A DNA stretch of 64,000 nucleotides from Bdellovibrionota bacterium. Its GTDB lineage: Bacteria; Bdellovibrionota_C; UBA2361; CALJRW01. Location: positions 188,936 through 252,935 of the forward strand of contig JBGSMD010000016.1 of NCBI GenBank assembly GCA_041740355.1. Direction: 5' to 3'. The notes beneath the pieces are model-generated. The model did not search any database and was not told where the DNA came from. It saw only the letters and a program-made list of their open reading frames with translations. Both the position numbers and the translations under genes were made by a program. This document shows, piece after piece, positions 34,738 through 64,000 of the stretch (position 1 is its first letter; every line of letters begins with the position of its first letter).

Positions 34738-34827
34738 GACAACTTTTGGCTCAGCTTTGTTATGGATTCATCCTCTCGTGCCAGGCTCACAGCCATTGAT
34801 TTAAGGCTGTAATTTATTGAAATAAGT

Positions 34828-38285: not shown

Positions 38286-38531
38286 CTTGAGCCAAGCAAC
38301 TGACATCTCAAATAAAAAACAAAGAAAAAGACTCTAAAAACTCAGCAGTCTAAAAGCTAATCAAAGCAATTATTAATATATTCTTAAATCTAAGGTACCA
38401 CGAACGTACCCCAGTCCCAGACTAGAATTTAGATTGCATAATAGTAATTATTGTTGTTGAGTCAGAATATTAAAAGCTTTTTAACAATTTTTAGATTGAT
38501 TTTCGTTAAATAAATATTTGGTTGGCTCAAG
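38286..38531. mobile_element. MITE-like derivative of the RAYT-like element
   Basis: Inverted ends CTTGAGCCAAGCAA / TTGGTTGGCTCAAG; left part matches 58001-58050, right part matches 61499-61637. Confidence 0.65.
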
Positions 38532-43028: not shown

Positions 43029-43488
43029 TTCACCTTGTGTTACGCCTCGTGCCAGGCTCACAGCCATTAACTTAAGGGTGTAAATATTAGAAGTGTTTGG
43101 AAAGTTCCAGGCACTTGGTTAAAGCGTTAAAGTCTGGAATATCTTGTGGATTAATGACTCAGAGAAGAAAGTGAATATGATCTCCATTTACGAGAAAGTG
43201 GCTTATTTTTACTTGGTGATGAAGATGAGCTTTAAGTAATGCAGAAGTTATGATGTATTTAACTAGTGGATTAGCAGTTAGCATTATTCCACTCTCTACG
43301 TTTGTAGTTAACATATAGAATAATTATGGAAGATTGTTCTTCTTAGTCTCCCGCAGTTGCTTTTAGGTTCTGCAGGCATTGCTACACTATTAACTATTTC
43401 CATTTATTCGAATTTTAATCTTTTGATTAAGTTTTCGAGGAATGTGAAAATTAGTTGTGTAAAAAGTTAGGGTGACTCCAGAAAAAAA
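43029..43488 (-). repeat. ~460-bp direct repeat copy 1: truncated RAYT 5' end with upstream end site
   Basis: Near-identical to 47359-47819; 1-bp deletion near 43320; encodes the MEIVNS...CGRLRRTIFHN start. Confidence 0.9.
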
Positions 43489-47358: not shown

Positions 47359-47819
47359 TTCACCTTGCGTTACGCCTCATGACAGGCTCACAGCCATTGA
47401 CTTAAGGGTGTAAATATTAGAAGTGTTTGGAAAGTTCCAGGCACTTGGTTAAAGCGTTAAAGTCTGGAATATCTTGTGGATTAATGACTCAGAGAAGAAA
47501 GTGCATATGAGCTCCATTTACGAGAAAGTGGCTTATTTTTACTTGGTGATGAAGATGAGCTTTAAGTAATGCAGAAGTTATGATGTATTTAACTAGTGGA
47601 TTAGCAGTTAGCATTATTCCACTCTCTACGTTTGTAGTTAGCATATAGACATAATTATGGAAGATTGTTCTTCTTAGTCTACCGCAGTTGCTTTTAGGTT
47701 CTGCAGGCATTGCTACACTATTAACTATTTCCATTTATTCGAATTTTAATCTTTTGATTAAGTTTTCGAGGAATGTGAAAATTAGTTGTGTAAAATGTTA
47801 GCTTGGCTCAAGAAAAAAG
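47359..47819 (-). repeat. ~460-bp direct repeat copy 2: truncated RAYT pseudogene (ORF 47489-47734)
   Basis: Aligns to N-terminus of 60455-61480 including HxH (AHMH); premature TGA. Confidence 0.9.
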
Positions 47820-47824
47820 AAAAA

Positions 47825-47872
47825 AATACAGGAATTTAATCTAATTTTGTTTAAGTTCTCTACATAGCAACT
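47825..47872 (-). mobile_element. IS110 left-end stub
   Basis: One mismatch to 63045-63092. Confidence 0.9.
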
Positions 47873-54620: not shown

Positions 54621-54820
54621 ACTTTTGTTGCCTTTTTTGCTCCAAGGATACCAGTACAGGGGAATCTCCCTCCTCTCTTGTGCCAGGCTACTTTTTTCGG
54701 CTCAAGCTGAAAGTTTAGAGTTGAACAAAGAGATTCGGTATGTGAATCTATAATTAATACTGGATGTTGAAACTAGCGGTATTCATTAGCCCTTAAACTT
54801 AAAGTCATTGAACAAAGAAG

Positions 54821-57618: not shown

Positions 57619-57639
57619 AGTTGATATGTAGAGAACTTA
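57619..57639 (+). mobile_element. IS110 left-end stub
   Basis: AGTTGATATGTAGAGAACTTA preceded by TCCCCTTG. Confidence 0.75.
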
Positions 57640-60264: not shown

Positions 60265-60288
60265 AGTTGCTATGTAGAGAACTTAAAC
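60265..60288 (+). mobile_element. IS110 left-end stub
   Basis: AGTTGCTATGTAGAGAACTTAAAC, exact reverse complement of 63069-63092. Confidence 0.85.
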
Positions 60289-60454
60289 CTTTTCAACCTT
60301 CAATCTTAACCAATGATCACATTTTGAACATTTTCTCCTCATATTTTGCCCTTCTTCCCCTTTCCCCTCTTTTCCCCTTGAGCCACGCCAAAATTTTACA
60401 CAACTAATTGTCTTTTTTATCGAATAATTAATCAACAGATTAAACTTTCGATAA

Positions 60455-61480
60455 ATGGAAATAACAGATAATACAGAACTGCAGTCAGAACCTGAATTTA
60501 AAAAGAAATGTGGCAGACTAAGACGTGCCATCTTTCACAATCATGTCTACATGCTAACTACCAGCGTAGAAAGTGGCATAATGCTTCCAGCTAATCCCCT
60601 AGTTAAATATGTAATATCTTCAGCACTACTAAAAGCACAGCTCCATCACCAAATAAAAATAAGCCATCTTCTGGTAAATGCCACCCATATTCACTTTCTT
60701 GTCAGAGTGATTAACCCACAAGACATCCCAGACTTTATGGAACGATTTAAGACAGAATCAGCACATTACCTAAATAGATTACTAGGAAGAAAGAAAAGAA
60801 CAATTTGGTGTGACAGGTATGACATGTCAGCAGCACTGGAAGCTTCTGATGTTATAGATAGAATTATCTACATTTATACTAATCCTGTAAAAGATGGCTT
60901 AGTCTCTAGTATAGATTTATACCCAGGACTAAGTAGTTGGAATAGATTTAATTCTAGTAAGAGCTACCTTAAGGGAAGTCTAATTTCCAGAAGAGATATT
61001 AAACCAGTTGAACAAGTAGCAAGTGAAGAACATTTTGAAAGAGCAAGAAAACAGCTAGCCGTAAAGAAAAAACTCAGGACTCTAGTAATTGATCCTAACG
61101 ACTGGATGAAGGCTTTTAAAATTACTAATAAAGATGAAATAGAAGAAATCAATAAAACTATCAAGGAAGGTATTATTGAAAGAACCAAAGTAATTCATGA
61201 GAGAAGACTTGAGGCTGGTAAAAAGCAATTCTTAGGATCTCATAAGTTAAGAAATCAAGAAATTAACTTAGAGTATCAATCTAAAAGATCTGGCAGAAAG
61301 ATGTGGTGTTACTGCAGGAATATTGAAAGAAGAAAGCAATATATCTCTTGGGTTAAAGAGCTAGCAGCAGAAGCTAGAGAAGTTTATAGAGCGTGGCAGA
61401 GTGGAGACACAAGTAGAGCTATGCCAATTGGAATGTTTGCTCCAAGGATGCCAGTTCAGGGTAATTTAATTTTTTGTTAG
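60455..61480 (+). CDS. REP-associated (RAYT-like) HUH Y1 tyrosine transposase, intact
   Basis: THIH HUH motif, W.DRY, YIYTNPVKDGLV catalytic Tyr helix, LSSW. Confidence 0.88.
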   Translation: MEITDNTELQSEPEFKKKCGRLRRAIFHNHVYMLTTSVESGIMLPANPLVKYVISSALLKAQLHHQIKISHLLVNATHIHFLVRVINPQDIPDFMERFKTESAHYLNRLLGRKKRTIWCDRYDMSAALEASDVIDRIIYIYTNPVKDGLVSSIDLYPGLSSWNRFNSSKSYLKGSLISRRDIKPVEQVASEEHFERARKQLAVKKKLRTLVIDPNDWMKAFKITNKDEIEEINKTIKEGIIERTKVIHERRLEAGKKQFLGSHKLRNQEINLEYQSKRSGRKMWCYCRNIERRKQYISWVKELAAEAREVYRAWQSGDTSRAMPIGMFAPRMPVQGNLIFC

Positions 61481-61744
61481 AAATACATTAACAGCTTTTT
61501 CTAGTCTGGGACTGGGGTACGTTTGTGCTGCCCAAAATTTAGGTCTCGTATGATTAATTATTGTAGGTGGATAAGGATAAGAACACCTTTTGCTGACTTT
61601 TTCGATTGATTTTCGCTCAATAAATAGTTGGTTGGCTGTTATGAGAGAAGTCAATAAAAAAATTGATTCTGCTTAATACCATTTAGGCGTTTTATATTGA
61701 CTACTTAAACAGTAGCAAATATCTGGAAAATTTGCGTTCTTTTT

Positions 61745-61916
61745 GGTATCTTGTAACACAAGCTGTTATCCGTGGTAATCACCTCGGTAGTTCCACAAGT
61801 TGCAAAATTCGTGATAAAAGAAGCTGTGCCTCAAACTAAAGCAGGTGGTTACTTAAAAAGTACCACAGCCTGGCACACGAGGTCACAGCAAAATCTGTTG
61901 TTACAATGATGATACC
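61745..61916 (-). ncRNA. Predicted bridge/seek RNA of the IS110 element
   Basis: Outer stem GGTATC..TTGTAAC / GTTACAA..GATACC; two GTGG..CCAC hairpins each flanked by segments matching target (AGGCT, CTTTAGTTTGAG) or donor (GCAACT, ATAACAG). Confidence 0.75.
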
Positions 61917-61944
61917 TTGCAGCTTAGCAAATTTGCGAAATTTA

Positions 61945-63011
61945 CTAAGCTGCCTTTTCTATTTTGGTATCAGAATAATTTATTTCATAATTAGTTTGTT
62001 TTCTAAAAAGAGCTCTTGCTCGTCCACTAAGTTTTCTGGCGATAGCAACAATTGCTTTCTTGCCATTTTTTCCCGCAGCAATTCTTGAATAAGTTTGTTT
62101 TAGAATTGGATCCTTTCCAATTGTAATCCAAGCTGATTCGGTTAGCAGTTCTCTAATTCTAGAATTACCTTGCCGAGATATTCTTCCTCTTCTAATACTT
62201 TCACCACTTGAGAATTCACAAGGTGTTAATCCTAAGAAGTTAAATAATGCTTTCTCGTTTCTAAACTGAGACATATCACCTAGCTCAGTTGCTAAAACAG
62301 TAGCTGTTTGAATTCCAATACCTGGGATTTGTAAGTAAGTTTGAACAATACTGGAAACTTTAGCTTCTTCTAAAAACTGCTGATTTAATTGTTTTATTTG
62401 CAGTTCTAGTTCTTTCCAAATAGATAGTAGTGGATACAAACTAAGCCTTACTTTCTCAGGAACAACGTTACTCATAATTAAGTTTGTGGCAGATTTATAA
62501 GTTAAAACTATTTTTAAATTTTCTGGAAACAAACCAAAGTGAATTAGCCTCATCCTGATCCTTGCGATTATTCGTACTCTGTCTTGTACTAACTGTCTTC
62601 TAGTCCTGTGTGCTAATCGACTTTGCTCTTGTTCTGGGGTTGGTAGATTCCTTTTAGTAATCCTAAACTTAAATGCTTTGCCATTTTTGTGGCATCTCTT
62701 TTGTCTGTCTTTACCCGATCTTTGGATTCAACTGCAATGGAAGACGAATTAACTATGATATTATCAATACCTGCTTCTGTTAATTCTCGGTGCAGAACAA
62801 AACCACTAAATCCTGCTTCGTAAACAGTTCTAAGGTTTGCTTTTGGATAATTACTTTTTAAATACTTGATTAGCCTTTCAGGACTTCCAGGCATTCTGGT
62901 TTTCTTTACTACTTCCGATTCTATTAATTCAACTACTGTGTAGCTTGTACGGGGAACATCAATACCGACAAATACTTCGCCTTCGTACTGCTGATTCTTT
63001 AATGTTGAAAT
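61945..63011 (-). pseudogene. IS110 DEDD recombinase, frameshifted
   Basis: VGIDV, YEAG, KTDKRDA, IPGIG, LGLTP..FSSG, AIARKL; ATT after AGGAG where ATG is expected; frameshift near 62645. Confidence 0.9.
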
Positions 63012-63137
63012 GGCAGACTCCTAAACTTAAATTAATTTCCAGATAATACAGGAATTTAATCTATTTTTGTTTAAGTTCTCTACATAGCAACTCCAAATAA
63101 AACTAAAAAAAACTAACTGAATTATTTATTCTGTTTG

Positions 63138-63818
63138 TCATTTATTACTATTTTCTAATTCTTCTAATAAATCCTCTATCTTAGCTCTTTTTTTATAATC
63201 AACTTCAATAAAAGAATAGGTAATTTTTTTATCTTTATCGACAATAAAAGTTGCCGCTAAAGGTAGCTCCCAAGAATGATTACCCTGATTCTTATCAAGA
63301 TCAATGCCAAACTGTCCGTAGAGTTCTTTTAATTCTTCATTGATTTTAAAAACAATCCCTAAATTTTTAGCGTATTTATTATCAACATCACTTAAAATAC
63401 TAAACTTTAGATCCCCCTTTTTAATAGTTACAGAAGAACTTTCTGGTAGTTCTGGGGAAATAGCAATCAAATTTGCACCTAGTTCATTTATCTCTTTAAT
63501 TTTGCTTGAATATGATTGTAGTTGTACATTGCAATACGGACACCACTCTCCTCTATAAAAGGTTATAATAGCTGGTTTATCTCCAAGTAATTTATATAAA
63601 GTAGTTTCTTCTGTGAGATTTAAAAATTGTCCATCAGGTAATGTGTCTCCAAGCTTTGGAGCCTTAGCCATAATGTTAGTGGCTTTTAATTCCTGAAGCG
63701 CCTCAGCCATAATTTGATCTTTATTAGCTAGTATCTTAGCATTTTTCTTTGGTGCATCCTCTGCAATCAAATGAGTACTTAGGAACAAGCTAAATAATAG
63801 TATAAGAACATTTTTCAT
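63138..63818 (-). CDS. AhpC/TSA peroxiredoxin-like protein
   Basis: FYRGEWCPYC, AISPE, WELPLAATF; likely start MKNVL at 63818. Confidence 0.9.
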   Translation of the reverse strand: MKNVLILLFSLFLSTHLIAEDAPKKNAKILANKDQIMAEALQELKATNIMAKAPKLGDTLPDGQFLNLTEETTLYKLLGDKPAIITFYRGEWCPYCNVQLQSYSSKIKEINELGANLIAISPELPESSSVTIKKGDLKFSILSDVDNKYAKNLGIVFKINEELKELYGQFGIDLDKNQGNHSWELPLAATFIVDKDKKITYSFIEVDYKKRAKIEDLLEELENSNK

Positions 63819-63881
63819 GTGGTTAATTTTAATTAAATTGTAGTAGATCATAACAACAATATATACAGTAATATAGTAAAC

Positions 63882-64000
63882 TGAGCTTCGCCAAAATCTT
63901 GGACACCAATCCCTATAAACTTTCCTTGTGAATTTCTTCAAATTCATCAGGACTACAATACCCTAGAGAAGAATGCATTCTCTTTGGATTGTAGAAATTC
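63882..64000 (-). mobile_element. IS3-family element right end with transposase C-terminus (partial, stop at 63913)
   Basis: Minus strand FYNPKRMHSSLGYCSPDEFEE* then IR-like GTGTCCAAGATTTTGGCGAAGCTCA ending in CA. Confidence 0.85.

What the first reader, a model, noticed from the sequence alone, without database searches (positions are those of the whole stretch)
61636..63092. IS1111-type element with a readable bridge RNA programmed against a site repeated across this window
Seen: the IS sits between two CT cores, giving target GTTGG-CT-CCAAATAAAA and circle junction CATAGCAA-CT-GTTATGAG. In the 3' non-coding RNA (minus strand, 61916 to 61745), one GTGG..CCAC hairpin is flanked by AGGCU (61867-71) and CUUUAGUUUGAG (61830-41), and a second by GCAACU (61798-803) and AUAACAG (61763-69). 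The second pair matches the donor junction. The first predicts target GG-CT-CAAACTAAAG, and with G-U wobble pairs 12/12 with CTCAAGCTGAAG at 38526. The junction also creates TTGACT-17 bp-TATGTA. Known: IS110/IS1111 recombinases use such two-loop RNAs. Inferred: a new specificity with a U-rich, wobble-tolerant guide.
Basis: partly seen in the sequence, partly recalled or inferred. Interest (0 to 1): 0.85.

Follow-up and report, generated by a model that had tools for sequence, protein, structure and literature searches.

The report
Dead IS1111-type element with bridge RNA
This is a broken copy of a known kind of jumping gene that uses its own small RNA to choose where it lands; it is an ordinary new member of that kind, although the genome also holds about a dozen odd one-ended leftovers of it.

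Summary
Window 61636-63092 is one IS1111-group (IS110-family) insertion sequence on the minus strand, lying between two CT cores. It has a short left end and a long 3' non-coding end, 18-nt subterminal inverted repeats and a circle-junction promoter (TTGACT-17-TATGTA). It also carries a two-loop bridge/seek RNA, whose fold is backed by covariation across 16 homologues.

The donor loop matches the element's own ends exactly. The copy is dead: it has ATT where two other copies have ATG, and it lacks 4 nt that a near-identical metagenome variant has.

Its UUUGAG is invariant across the family, and in relatives the guide is the 7 nt plus AG just upstream.

In the family register the guides fit the element's present flanks poorly. 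However, the left guide plus core (GTGCCAGGCT) occurs exactly three more times in the window (0.07 expected).

Fifteen left-end junctions share CT-CAAG. That is the terminal repeat of a RAYT-like Y1 element, found 7 times in the window. No "wobble-tolerant new specificity" is shown.

Verdict: a new member of a known kind. Side finding: 13 left-end-only relics and no right-end relics.

The parts
61636..61637 (+). CT core copy at the right-end (RE) junction; AG on the element's sense strand
   Evidence: Read. The same dinucleotide recurs at 63091-63092.
61638..61661 (-). RE terminus. Holds the subterminal inverted-repeat arm (61644-61661) and the -35-like TTGACT (61654-61649).
   Evidence: Inverted repeat I10 is 18 nt and 78% complementary to 63064-63081. 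Hexamers and 17-nt spacer. The RE end motif TTGAC...CAT(A/G)(A/G)CAG is shared with relatives.
61745..61916 (-). Bridge (seek) RNA gene. An outer stem encloses a target-binding loop and a donor-binding loop.
   Evidence: Single-sequence fold, z = -3.57. Alignment A1 of 16 homologues. Consensus fold has 23 pairs, 14 with compensatory changes. 95.9% paired, 0 of 500 shuffles reach this.
61867..61876 (-). Left target guide plus core, GUGCCAGG-CU (family register)
   Evidence: Homologous columns in A1. In relatives this segment complements the RE-side flank: a mean of 5.07 of 8 cognate (n=14) against 2.33 of 8 non-cognate (n=136).
61845..61866 (-). Hairpin 1, the upper stem of the target loop
   Evidence: Helix 2 of the consensus fold. 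3 of 5 pairs have changes on both sides.
61836..61844 (-). Right target guide plus core, CUGCUUU-AG (family register). The family-invariant UUUGAGG follows at 61835-61829.
   Evidence: The guide covaries with the LE flank in relatives: a mean of 4.0 of 7 cognate (n=9) against 1.79 of 7 non-cognate (n=48).
61830..61841 (-).
   Evidence: Read. It fits the consensus of 15 LE junctions but overlaps the conserved, predicted-paired segment.
61798..61803 (-). Left donor guide GCAACU, the complement of the LE start AG-TTGC
   Evidence: 6 of 6 match. Also perfect in relatives L029 and L034.
61771..61797 (-). Hairpin 2, the upper stem of the donor loop
   Evidence: Helix 3 of the consensus fold. 5 of 8 pairs have changes on both sides, 97.7% paired.
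61763..61769 (-). Right donor guide AUAACAG, identical to the RE end ATAACAG
   Evidence: In relatives it changes together with the RE end (ATAGCAG, ATGACAG, ATGACTG).
61919..61953 (-). 16-bp hairpin that spans the transposase stop codon
   Evidence: Inverted repeat I6, 94% complementary. Its role was not tested.
61945..62634 (-). C-terminal part of the transposase reading frame, stop included
   Evidence: Pfam Transposase_20, 88 bits. NCBIfam IS110 family RNA-guided transposase, 140.8 bits against a cut-off of 140. The GLTPCEFSSG motif is present.
62645..62646 (-). Place of the frame break. A close variant in run X4 has four more bases here.
   Evidence: table 4 (one contig, depth 8.46). The two frames overlap here.
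62613..63011 (-). N-terminal part of the transposase frame. It begins with ATT (63011-63009) and ends at a premature stop.
   Evidence: Pfam DEDD_Tnp_IS110, 21.2 bits, below the cut-off of 29. NCBIfam 47.9 bits. There is ATG at the same place in the C13 partial copy and in G001.
63012..63090 (-). Left end (LE), 79 nt. Holds the -10-like TATGTA (63086-63081) and the subterminal repeat arm (63064-63081).
   Evidence: The LE start AGTTGCTATGTAGA is shared with relatives.
63091..63092 (+). CT core copy at the LE junction
   Evidence: Thirteen further LE termini in the genome end in the same ...GCAA-CT.
60377..61637 (+). RAYT-like Y1 element. Its right terminal repeat (...TTGGTTGG-CT) is the sequence the IS abuts.
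   Evidence: Pfam Y1_Tnp, 34.7 bits. NCBIfam REP-associated tyrosine transposase, 59 bits, below the cut-off of 80. Copies and their ends.

Best explanation
Window 61638-63090 (minus strand) is a single, recently inactivated copy of an IS1111-group member of the IS110 family. It worked in the way described for that group.

Inferred mechanism, by homology:
1. The element leaves as a circle. Joining the two ends puts the -35 of the right end (TTGACT) 17 nt from the -10 of the left end (TATGTA), which drives the transposase.
2. A folded RNA of about 170 nt, made from the long 3' non-coding end, binds the DEDD/serine recombinase.
3. Its donor loop (GCAACU and AUAACAG) holds the circle junction, and its target loop holds the target.
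4. Strands are exchanged at the shared CT.

Shown here: the anatomy, the conserved RNA fold, the donor-loop match, and guide-to-flank covariation in relatives.

The target guides, read in the register that covaries in relatives, are GUGCCAGG-CU and CUGCUUU-AG. The sites this IS lineage actually used in this genome carry CT-CAAG. This is the outer part of the terminal inverted repeat TGG-CT-CAAG of a multi-copy RAYT-like Y1 element. So the IS preys on the ends of another mobile element, as REP-targeting IS110 elements do.

The surviving copy cannot move by itself, because it has no start codon and its frame is broken. Its two flanks are not the two halves of one target, most simply because of recombination between former copies (inferred).
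For: Family:
- Both transposase halves hit IS110-family models.
- An alignment with 7 intact relatives of 310-353 aa shows the conserved acidic residues and GL-P----SG.

IS1111 anatomy:
- LE is 79 nt and the 3' non-coding end is 307 nt.
- The subterminal inverted repeat is 18 nt at 78%.
- CT lies at both junctions.
- The junction promoter spacing is 17 nt.

RNA:
- The consensus fold of 16 homologues has 23 pairs, 14 of them with compensatory changes.
- It is 95.9% paired; 0 of 500 shuffles reach this, and slid controls give 22-53%.

Donor loop:
- The left donor guide matches 6 of 6 and the right donor guide 7 of 7 to the element's own ends.
- The right donor guide changes with the RE end in relatives.

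Guide-flank covariation in relatives:
- Left target guide: 5.07 of 8 cognate (n=14) against 2.33 of 8 (n=136).
- Right target guide: 4.0 of 7 (n=9) against 1.79 of 7 (n=48).
- Further cases appear in metagenome loci: L055 10 of 10, and L057/L061 TCTCAG-AG.

Target:
- 15 LE junctions share C at +1 (15 of 15), A at +3 (14 of 15) and G at +4 (10 of 15).
- TGGCTCAAG lies at both ends of the Y1 element, 7 times in the window against 0.57 expected.
- GTGCCAGGCT occurs 3 more times in the window against 0.07 expected.

Defects:
- ATT stands where the C13 copy and G001 have ATG.
- A 4-nt gap relative to the X4 variant.
- Relatives have single frames.

Literature: IS1111 features and the RE-encoded bridge/seek RNA (PMC11187229 sections 6, 9 and 13; PMC11208160 passages).
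Against: - In the family register the element's own flanks fit its target loop poorly. The left guide matches 4 of 8, and the right guide 1 of 7, the lowest right-guide score in the set; the left-guide score lies within the relatives' range of 2-8.
- At +1 after the core, all 15 junctions have C where this guide predicts A.
- No site in the genome matches both guides well in either register.
- The N-terminal Pfam hit is below its cut-off.
- Rfam has no match.
- No expression data exist.
- The RNA of this copy may itself have decayed.
- Pairing of UUUGAGG with ACCYCG rests mostly on invariant pairs, so it is weakly proven.
Confidence: 0.85

Rival explanations
1. The right target guide is CUUUAGUUUGAG with its core at 61831-61830, the left guide is AGGCU, and the element has a U-rich guide that tolerates G-U pairs. 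Its cognate site is GG-CT-CAAGCTGAAG, the right end of the Y1 element.
For: - Against 15 LE junctions this register scores a mean of 5.73 of 10, with background CT sites at 2.79 and 0 of 5000 shuffled guides as good.
- It predicts the invariant C at +1 and the T at +6.
- The element's own LE flank scores 7 of 10.
- Y1 right ends score 7-8 of 10 plus 2 wobble pairs, which puts them in the top 0.1-0.75% of genomic CT sites.
Against: - UUUGAGG is near-invariant in 16 homologues whatever their flanks, and it is predicted to pair with ACCYCG.
- Relatives without a second AG (L034, L037, L008, L057) still show guide-flank matches in the other register.
- The 15 flanks are copies of one repeat family, not independent samples.
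- The wobble pattern is at chance level genome-wide: 12 found against about 7.6 by my estimate. Window: 1 against 0.17.
- The left guide would be only 3 nt beyond the core.
Confidence: 0.25
2. The target loop of this copy is programmed for a different site, GTGCCAGG-CT-..., which lies in or beside a 38-bp hairpin repeat and a degraded Y1 right end. The present flanks are secondary: recombination between copies swapped them.
For: - GTGCCAGGCT lies exactly at 34778, 43049 and 54680, all on the + strand, against 0.07 expected.
- Two of these sites are in the 38-bp repeat.
- The third is 11 nt upstream of CGG-CT-CAAGCTGAAAG, in a truncated Y1 right end.
- In relatives the left guide is the more faithful one.
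Against: - At these three sites the right half does not fit the right guide in any register. CACAGCC scores 1 of 7 or 4 of 10, and ACTTTTT scores 1 of 7 (my reading of the site sequences printed).
- Similarity to the repeat runs on into the family-conserved spacer CCUCG and into stem A (CACAGC). That suggests common descent rather than guide-target pairing.
- No IS junction was found at such a site.
Confidence: 0.3
3. The hairpins and matches in the 3' end are chance, and there is no functional RNA.
For: No Rfam match and no RNA data.
Against: - Fold covariation: 14 compensatory pairs, 0 of 500 shuffles.
- The donor guides are exact and covary.
- The published role of this region in IS1111 elements.
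Confidence: 0.02

Closest known systems
IS1111-family elements with a seekRNA (ISEc11, ISPa11, ISKpn4; Siddiquee et al. 2024, PMC11187229; sections 6, 9 and 13 read)
   Same: A DEDD transposase of about 350 aa with GL-P----SG. The long non-coding region lies downstream of tnp. Subterminal inverted repeats are present. The RNA has a top-strand match 5' of a bottom-strand match. Each lineage has its own target.
   Different: The protein is only about 40-50% identical to the nearest relatives found here, which are all unnamed MAG copies. This copy is dead. Its target loop fits its own flanks poorly. Identity to the named IS was not measured.
IS621 and the IS110-group bridge RNA (Durrant et al. 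2024, PMC11208160, passages read; Hiraizumi et al. 2026, PMC13626964, abstract read)
   Same: Two internal loops, each with a left and a right guide that include the CT core. The dinucleotides next to the cores (UU after AG, GU after CU) fit the ends, like the 'handshake guides'. There is a junction promoter.
   Different: In IS621 the RNA lies upstream of the recombinase gene, in the left end. Here it lies downstream, in the right end, with long subterminal repeats.
REP-targeting IS110-family elements (ISPpu9, ISPpu10; Pares-Guillen et al. 2025, PMC12288879, abstract read)
   Same: Insertion into repeated palindromic or terminal sequences linked to a Y1 transposase world. Partial modules are scattered in the genome.
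   Different: ISPpu9 modules are defined units that move as circles. Here the relics are left ends of 14 to 201 nt with ragged inner borders. The target is the terminal repeat of a multi-copy RAYT-like gene unit.
IS4321/IS5075, which target the terminal repeats of Tn21-type transposons (recalled; seen here only in the reference list of PMC11208160)
   Same: An IS1111 member that lands in the terminal inverted repeat of another mobile element, in one orientation.
   Different: A different host element (Y1/HUH type rather than Tn3 family) and different sequences.

Membership tests
IS110 family | N-terminal DEDD (RuvC-like) domain | tested here: met
   PF01548 hit at 21.2 bits, below the cut-off of 29, on the 132-aa fragment. 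NCBIfam transpos_IS110 positions 1-117, 47.9 bits. GIDV, YEAG and TDKRD align with 7 relatives.
IS110 family | C-terminal Transposase_20 domain with the G--P----S/T-G motif | tested here: met
   PF02371, 88 bits against a cut-off of 21.3. NCBIfam 140.8 bits against a cut-off of 140. GLTPCEFSSG is present.
IS1111 group | The longer non-coding region lies downstream of tnp (short LE, long RE) | tested here: met
   LE is 79 nt (63090-63012). The 3' non-coding end is 307 nt (61944-61638).
IS1111 group | Subterminal inverted repeats (7-17 bp in the literature) | tested here: met
   Arms 61644-61661 and 63064-63081, 18 nt, 78% complementary, set in 6 and 9 nt from the ends.
IS1111 group | No target duplication beyond a shared core dinucleotide; site-specific, oriented insertion | tested here: met
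   CT at both junctions. 15 LE junctions all end ...GCAA-CT and are followed by C.
Bridge/seek RNA | A conserved fold with two internal loops | tested here: met
   23 pairs, 14 compensatory, 95.9% paired. There is no Rfam family match.
Bridge/seek RNA | The donor loop is complementary to both element ends | tested here: met
   GCAACU against AG-TTGC, 6 of 6. AUAACAG against ATAACAG, 7 of 7. Covaries in relatives.
Bridge/seek RNA | The target loop is complementary to both flanks of the same copy | tested here: not met
In the family register, 4 of 8 and 1 of 7. The feature is met in relatives. This copy may be recombinant or decayed.
Bridge/seek RNA | The RNA is made and binds the recombinase | not testable with these tools
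   No RNA run holds the stretch.
Active insertion sequence | An intact transposase gene | tested here: not met
   ATT at the start position and a frame break. It is the only copy with a transposase in the assembly.

The most novel reading that the evidence does not exclude
The 13 left-end-only relics are 14-201 nt long. Each ends exactly at ...GCAA-CT next to a target-like right half. There are no right-end relics and no internal ones. They may be footprints of aborted RNA-guided integration rather than decayed full copies.

The idea: only the strand carrying the left-end junction is joined to the new target. Replication or repair then copies a variable stretch of the left end before it switches back to the target.

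One relic (47825-47872) sits between two copies of the same right half, CAAGAAAAA(A)G, as this model predicts. If true, it would be natural, genomic evidence for the single-strand (top-strand) insertion or direct-transfer pathway proposed for IS110 elements in a 2025 preprint.
Probability: 0.1. Interest if true: 0.65.

Novelty: new member of a known kind. Interest (0 to 1): 0.28.

Why it matters
In itself, little. RNA-guided IS110/IS1111 recombinases and their bridge or seek RNAs have been described since 2024 and are predicted in most family members.

Three things may be useful.

1. **A family for guide rules.** This is a small family in Bdellovibrionota-type genomes. At least 16 distinct RNAs and their flanks were gathered, and guide-to-flank covariation can be read directly. 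This helps to fix guide registers for IS1111-type RNAs, which have been studied less than IS621.
2. **A caution.** In AT-rich elements, a conserved structural segment can pass for a guide.
3. **The genome as a record.** It shows an IS1111 lineage living on the terminal repeats of a RAYT-like element and leaving only left-end relics. That asymmetry has no worked-out cause.

Tried and rejected
- **Rfam**, permissive search of 61000-64000: no match.
- **Near-perfect cognate target in the own genome**: none in either register. The top-scoring lists were not enriched in repeats.
- **Empty-site comparison for relics in unique DNA** (C39, C48 and C64 regions, against the same-genus genome G001): only short or 67%-identical matches, or none, so no orthologous empty site was found. 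The C11 region gave only repeat matches.
- **Close variants with DNA in hand**: genome contigs and metagenome contigs gave relatives of only 39-64% protein identity (best segment). The roughly 90-95% identical variants seen in runs X4 and X7 could be laid but not fetched. 127 differences were not shown, so their guide sequences stayed unseen.
- **RNA evidence**: no RNA holder was listed.
- **Is the excess of left ends general?** In 5 genomes with intact relatives, the LE pattern gave 23 matches and the RE pattern 9. No conclusion can be drawn.
- **Relic inner borders**: no CT or other shared motif at the breakpoints (my reading). This argues against mini-circles formed at cryptic ends.
- **Literature on one-ended IS1111 relics**: one search (IS1111, truncated, remnants, REP) listed nothing relevant among 10 titles. 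This does not show that nothing is in print. Supplementary files were not opened.
- **Script or frame errors**, all corrected.
Full report
**What is there**

The window is the last 64 kb of contig C16 of a 3.27-Mb, 74-contig assembly. Its G+C content is 35.9%.

On the minus strand, between CT at 61636-61637 and CT at 63091-63092, lies a 1,453-bp element. It carries two overlapping reading-frame pieces.
- The piece 63011-62616 (132 codons) hits DEDD_Tnp_IS110, at 21.2 bits, below the cut-off of 29.
- The piece 62634-61948 (229 codons) hits Transposase_20 at 88 bits.
- NCBIfam names both pieces 'IS110 family RNA-guided transposase' (47.9 and 140.8 bits; cut-off 140).
- Aligned with 7 intact relatives of 310-353 aa, the pieces keep the conserved acidic residues and the GLTPCEFSSG motif.

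**IS1111 anatomy**

- The left end (LE) is 79 nt and the non-coding stretch after the stop codon is 307 nt.
- An 18-nt subterminal inverted repeat (78%) lies 6 and 9 nt in from the ends.
- Joining the ends places TTGACT 17 nt from TATGTA.
- The same LE start (AGTTGCTATGTAGA) and right-end (RE) motif (TTGAC...CATAGCAG) recur in relatives.

These are the features that Siddiquee et al. (PMC11187229; sections 6, 9 and 13 read) and Durrant et al. (PMC11208160; passages read) give for the IS1111 group. Both papers place the bridge or seek RNA in the right end.

**The copy is dead**

- The start position reads ATT. A 201-nt partial copy on contig C13 and a 437-nt partial copy in the same-genus genome G001 both read ATG there.
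- The frame breaks at 62645/62646. A contig of coded run X4 (a different study, roughly 90-95% alike over the whole element) has four more bases there (table 4). By my reading of the sequence, those four bases put the two pieces into one frame. This rests on one contig of depth 8.46.
- BLAST of 61500-63200 against the own genome finds no second copy of the interior or of the right end.
- A protein search finds one match in this genome.

**The RNA**

The region 61916-61745 folds well on its own: -72.5 kcal/mol, z = -3.57, and 0 of 200 shuffles fold as well.

I gathered relatives from several sources.
- 9 loci from genome contigs. By their titles, 6 of the 9 are Bdellovibrionota or Bdellovibrionales MAGs.
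- 15 genomes with a match, besides the window's own, of 124 searched in the phylum.
- 18 metagenome loci.

The identity to the C-terminal piece is 39-64% (best segment).

Sixteen distinct 180-nt RNA regions, this one included, align well. The consensus fold has 23 pairs in three helices, 14 of them with changes on both sides. On my count, 95.9% of cells pair, against 83.5% in shuffles (0 of 500 reach it) and 22-53% when partners are slid by 1-3 columns.

The layout is:
1. Stem A.
2. An internal loop whose two strands flank hairpin 1.
3. A linker.
4. A second loop flanking hairpin 2.

**Donor loop**

GCAACU (61803-61798) complements the LE start AG-TTGC, 6 of 6. AUAACAG (61769-61763) equals the RE end, 7 of 7.

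In relatives the second segment changes with the RE end: ATAGCAG, ATGACAG, and ATGACTG in L005 and L030.

**Target loop and its register**

In relatives the 5' strand ends in 7-8 variable bases plus CU. These complement the RE-side flank. Examples are L029 8 of 8, L023 8 of 8 and L007 8 of 8. The mean over 14 relatives is 5.07 of 8, against 2.33 of 8 for 136 non-cognate pairs. Some low values come from 1-3-nt offsets that I did not correct. L055 matches 10 of 10.

The 3' strand is 7 variable bases plus AG, followed by UUUGAGG.
- The variable bases equal the LE-side flank. L034 scores 7 of 7 and L031 6 of 7; L057 and L061 read TCTCAG-AG. The mean is 4.0 of 7 (n=9) against 1.79 of 7 (n=48).
- UUUGAGG is nearly invariant and is predicted to pair with the equally conserved ACCYCG. 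These pairs are mostly invariant, so the pairing itself is weakly proven.

By homology, this element's guides are GUGCCAGG-CU (61876-61867) and CUGCUUU-AG (61844-61836). The dinucleotides that follow the cores (UU and GU) fit the first bases of the LE and the last bases of the RE. That is how 'handshake guides' are described in the abstract of PMC13626964; the match is my inference.

It is therefore shifted by 6 nt into the conserved segment.

**Do the guides fit?**

Against the element's own flanks, the family register gives 4 of 8 and 1 of 7. The right-guide score is the lowest of the set; the left-guide score lies within the relatives' range of 2-8. The genome has no near-perfect site in either register. 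Two non-random signals remain.

*Signal 1.* GTGCCAGGCT (left guide plus core) occurs on the + strand at 34778, 43049 and 54680, as well as in the RNA gene itself. That is 4 matches against 0.07 expected, and 0 of 100 shuffles reach it.
- Two of the three lie in a 38-bp hairpin repeat.
- The third lies in a truncated right end of the neighbouring Y1 element, 11 nt before CGG-CT-CAAGCTGAAAG.
- At none of the three does the right half fit the right guide.
- In the repeat, the likeness runs on into the conserved spacer and stem A. Common descent is therefore as likely as targeting.

*Signal 2.* The LE terminus occurs 13 more times in the genome, and once in G001. All 15 junctions read ...GCAA-CT followed by C (15 of 15). 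They have A at +3 (14 of 15), G at +4 (10 of 15) and an A-rich tail.

CT-CAAG is the outer half of TGG-CT-CAAG. This 9-mer ends both arms of a 1.26-kb element (60377-61637).
- Its 341-aa protein hits Y1_Tnp (34.7 bits) and, below the cut-off, the REP-associated tyrosine transposase model (59 bits against 80).
- That element has two near-full further copies and many pieces.
- The 9-mer occurs 7 times in the window against 0.57 expected.
- The IS itself abuts the right arm of one copy (...TTGGTTGG-CT).

So this IS lineage used the terminal repeats of the Y1 element. This is the habit known from REP-targeting IS110 members (PMC12288879, abstract).

**Which register explains the junctions?**

|---|---|---|
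| Mean match to the 15 junctions | 2.60 of 7 | 5.73 of 10 |
| Background CT sites | 1.80 | 2.79 |
| Shuffled guides as good | 1121 of 5000 | 0 of 5000 |
| Y1 right end CAAGCTGAAA | 5 of 7 | 7 of 10 |
| Rank of that site among genomic CT sites | top 1.9% | top 0.75% |

The family register also misses the invariant C at +1.

The flanks are copies of one repeat, so the shuffle figure overstates the case. Measured against genomic CT sites, the two registers are of the same order. I keep the family register as more likely, at roughly 55 to 25, with the rest for a decayed or retargeted RNA. The reason is that it is the register that covaries across the family. The question is open.

The 12/12 wobble match at 38526 is real, but its pattern is at chance level. 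It has 1 match in the window against 0.17 expected. It has 12 in the genome against about 7.6 by my estimate.

**Flanks of the surviving copy**

The left flank is a Y1 right arm. The right flank (CCAAATAAAACT...) is unique DNA just after an AhpC/TSA-type gene, not the expected CAAGCTGAA. Recombination between two former copies at different sites would give this result. This is inference.

**One-ended relics**

There are 13 relics, 14 to 201 nt long.
- All keep the exact LE terminus.
- None keeps an RE terminus. The RE pattern gave 17 hits at up to 4 mismatches. Only the IS itself is a true copy, and BLAST shows no interior pieces.
- Three lie in the window: 47825-47872 (+ orientation), 57619-57639 and 60265-60288 (both reversed).
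- Six of the 13 have Y1 sequence within 400 nt.
- Contigs of runs X2 and X3 from the same study show the same borders (table 7).
- Inner borders share no motif.

Ordinary deletion does not explain 13 to 0. Two candidate causes follow; neither is tested.
- Deletions that start at the Y1 arm on the RE side.
- Aborted single-strand integration followed by template switching. The second idea leans on the top-strand model of a 2025 preprint (10.1101/2025.10.25.684509; abstract and section 8 read) and on one relic flanked by a duplicated right half.

**Verdict**

This is a real, correctly located, but ordinary and dead IS1111-type element. The bridge RNA is real and family-typical. The claimed new wobble-tolerant specificity is not supported.

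No RNA run holds the stretch. Supplementary files of the papers were not opened; they may hold guide maps for IS1111 RNAs that bear on the register.

Noticed in passing
window 60377-61637; also C51:22036-23296, C51:14054-15258 and fragments at window 38426-38527, 43128-43481 and 47458-47812: A multi-copy 1.26-kb unit that encodes a 341-aa RAYT-like Y1 (HUH) protein. It is bounded by inverted TGGCTCAAG-containing ends. The last 26 kb of the window is a patchwork of its pieces.
   Followed up: partly
window 47825-47872 (+), 57619-57639 (-), 60265-60288 (-); ten more on C11, C13, C39, C46, C48, C51 and C64: Thirteen left-end-only relics of the IS (14-201 nt) with the exact terminus and ragged inner borders. 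There are no right-end or interior relics. The cause is unknown.
   Followed up: partly
window 34775-34812, 43046-43083, 47376-47413; about a dozen related hairpins elsewhere in the genome: A 38-bp hairpin repeat (inner stem CACAGCC/GGCTGTG, 10-nt loop, variable outer stem). Its left arm equals the IS left target guide plus core followed by the stem A sequence. The same motif abuts the IS at 61923 in run X7 and lies about 300 nt from the partial copy in G001.
   Followed up: partly
window 54640-54720: A severely shortened Y1 right end. It reads GTGCCAGG-CT, then 11 nt, then CGG-CT-CAAGCTGAAAG. This is the only place where a perfect left half and a consensus right half lie side by side.
   Followed up: no
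L019 (G000:C11:119402-119506) and G001 contig ends (L038-L041, L046-L048): The C11 relic is fused to about 82 nt that resemble the end of a multi-copy element with terminal inverted repeats in the same-genus genome G001. There that element also sits after ...GG-CT, once in a Y1 right end.
   Followed up: partly
window 61400-63300 as laid on runs X4 and X7: Other metagenomes (compost and freshwater sediment, by their labels) hold 90-95% identical variants of the whole IS. One has the four bases that this copy lacks. Live copies probably exist elsewhere.
   Followed up: partly
window 61919-61953: A 16-bp, 94% hairpin spans the transposase stop codon, just upstream of the RNA. It may mark an RNA end or a terminator.
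   Followed up: no
G000:C13:1-141 and L011 (G001:C19) 1042-1425: Two partial IS copies are cut off by IS3-type (rve domain-like) transposase sequences, judged by reading their translations. No family search was run on them.
   Followed up: no
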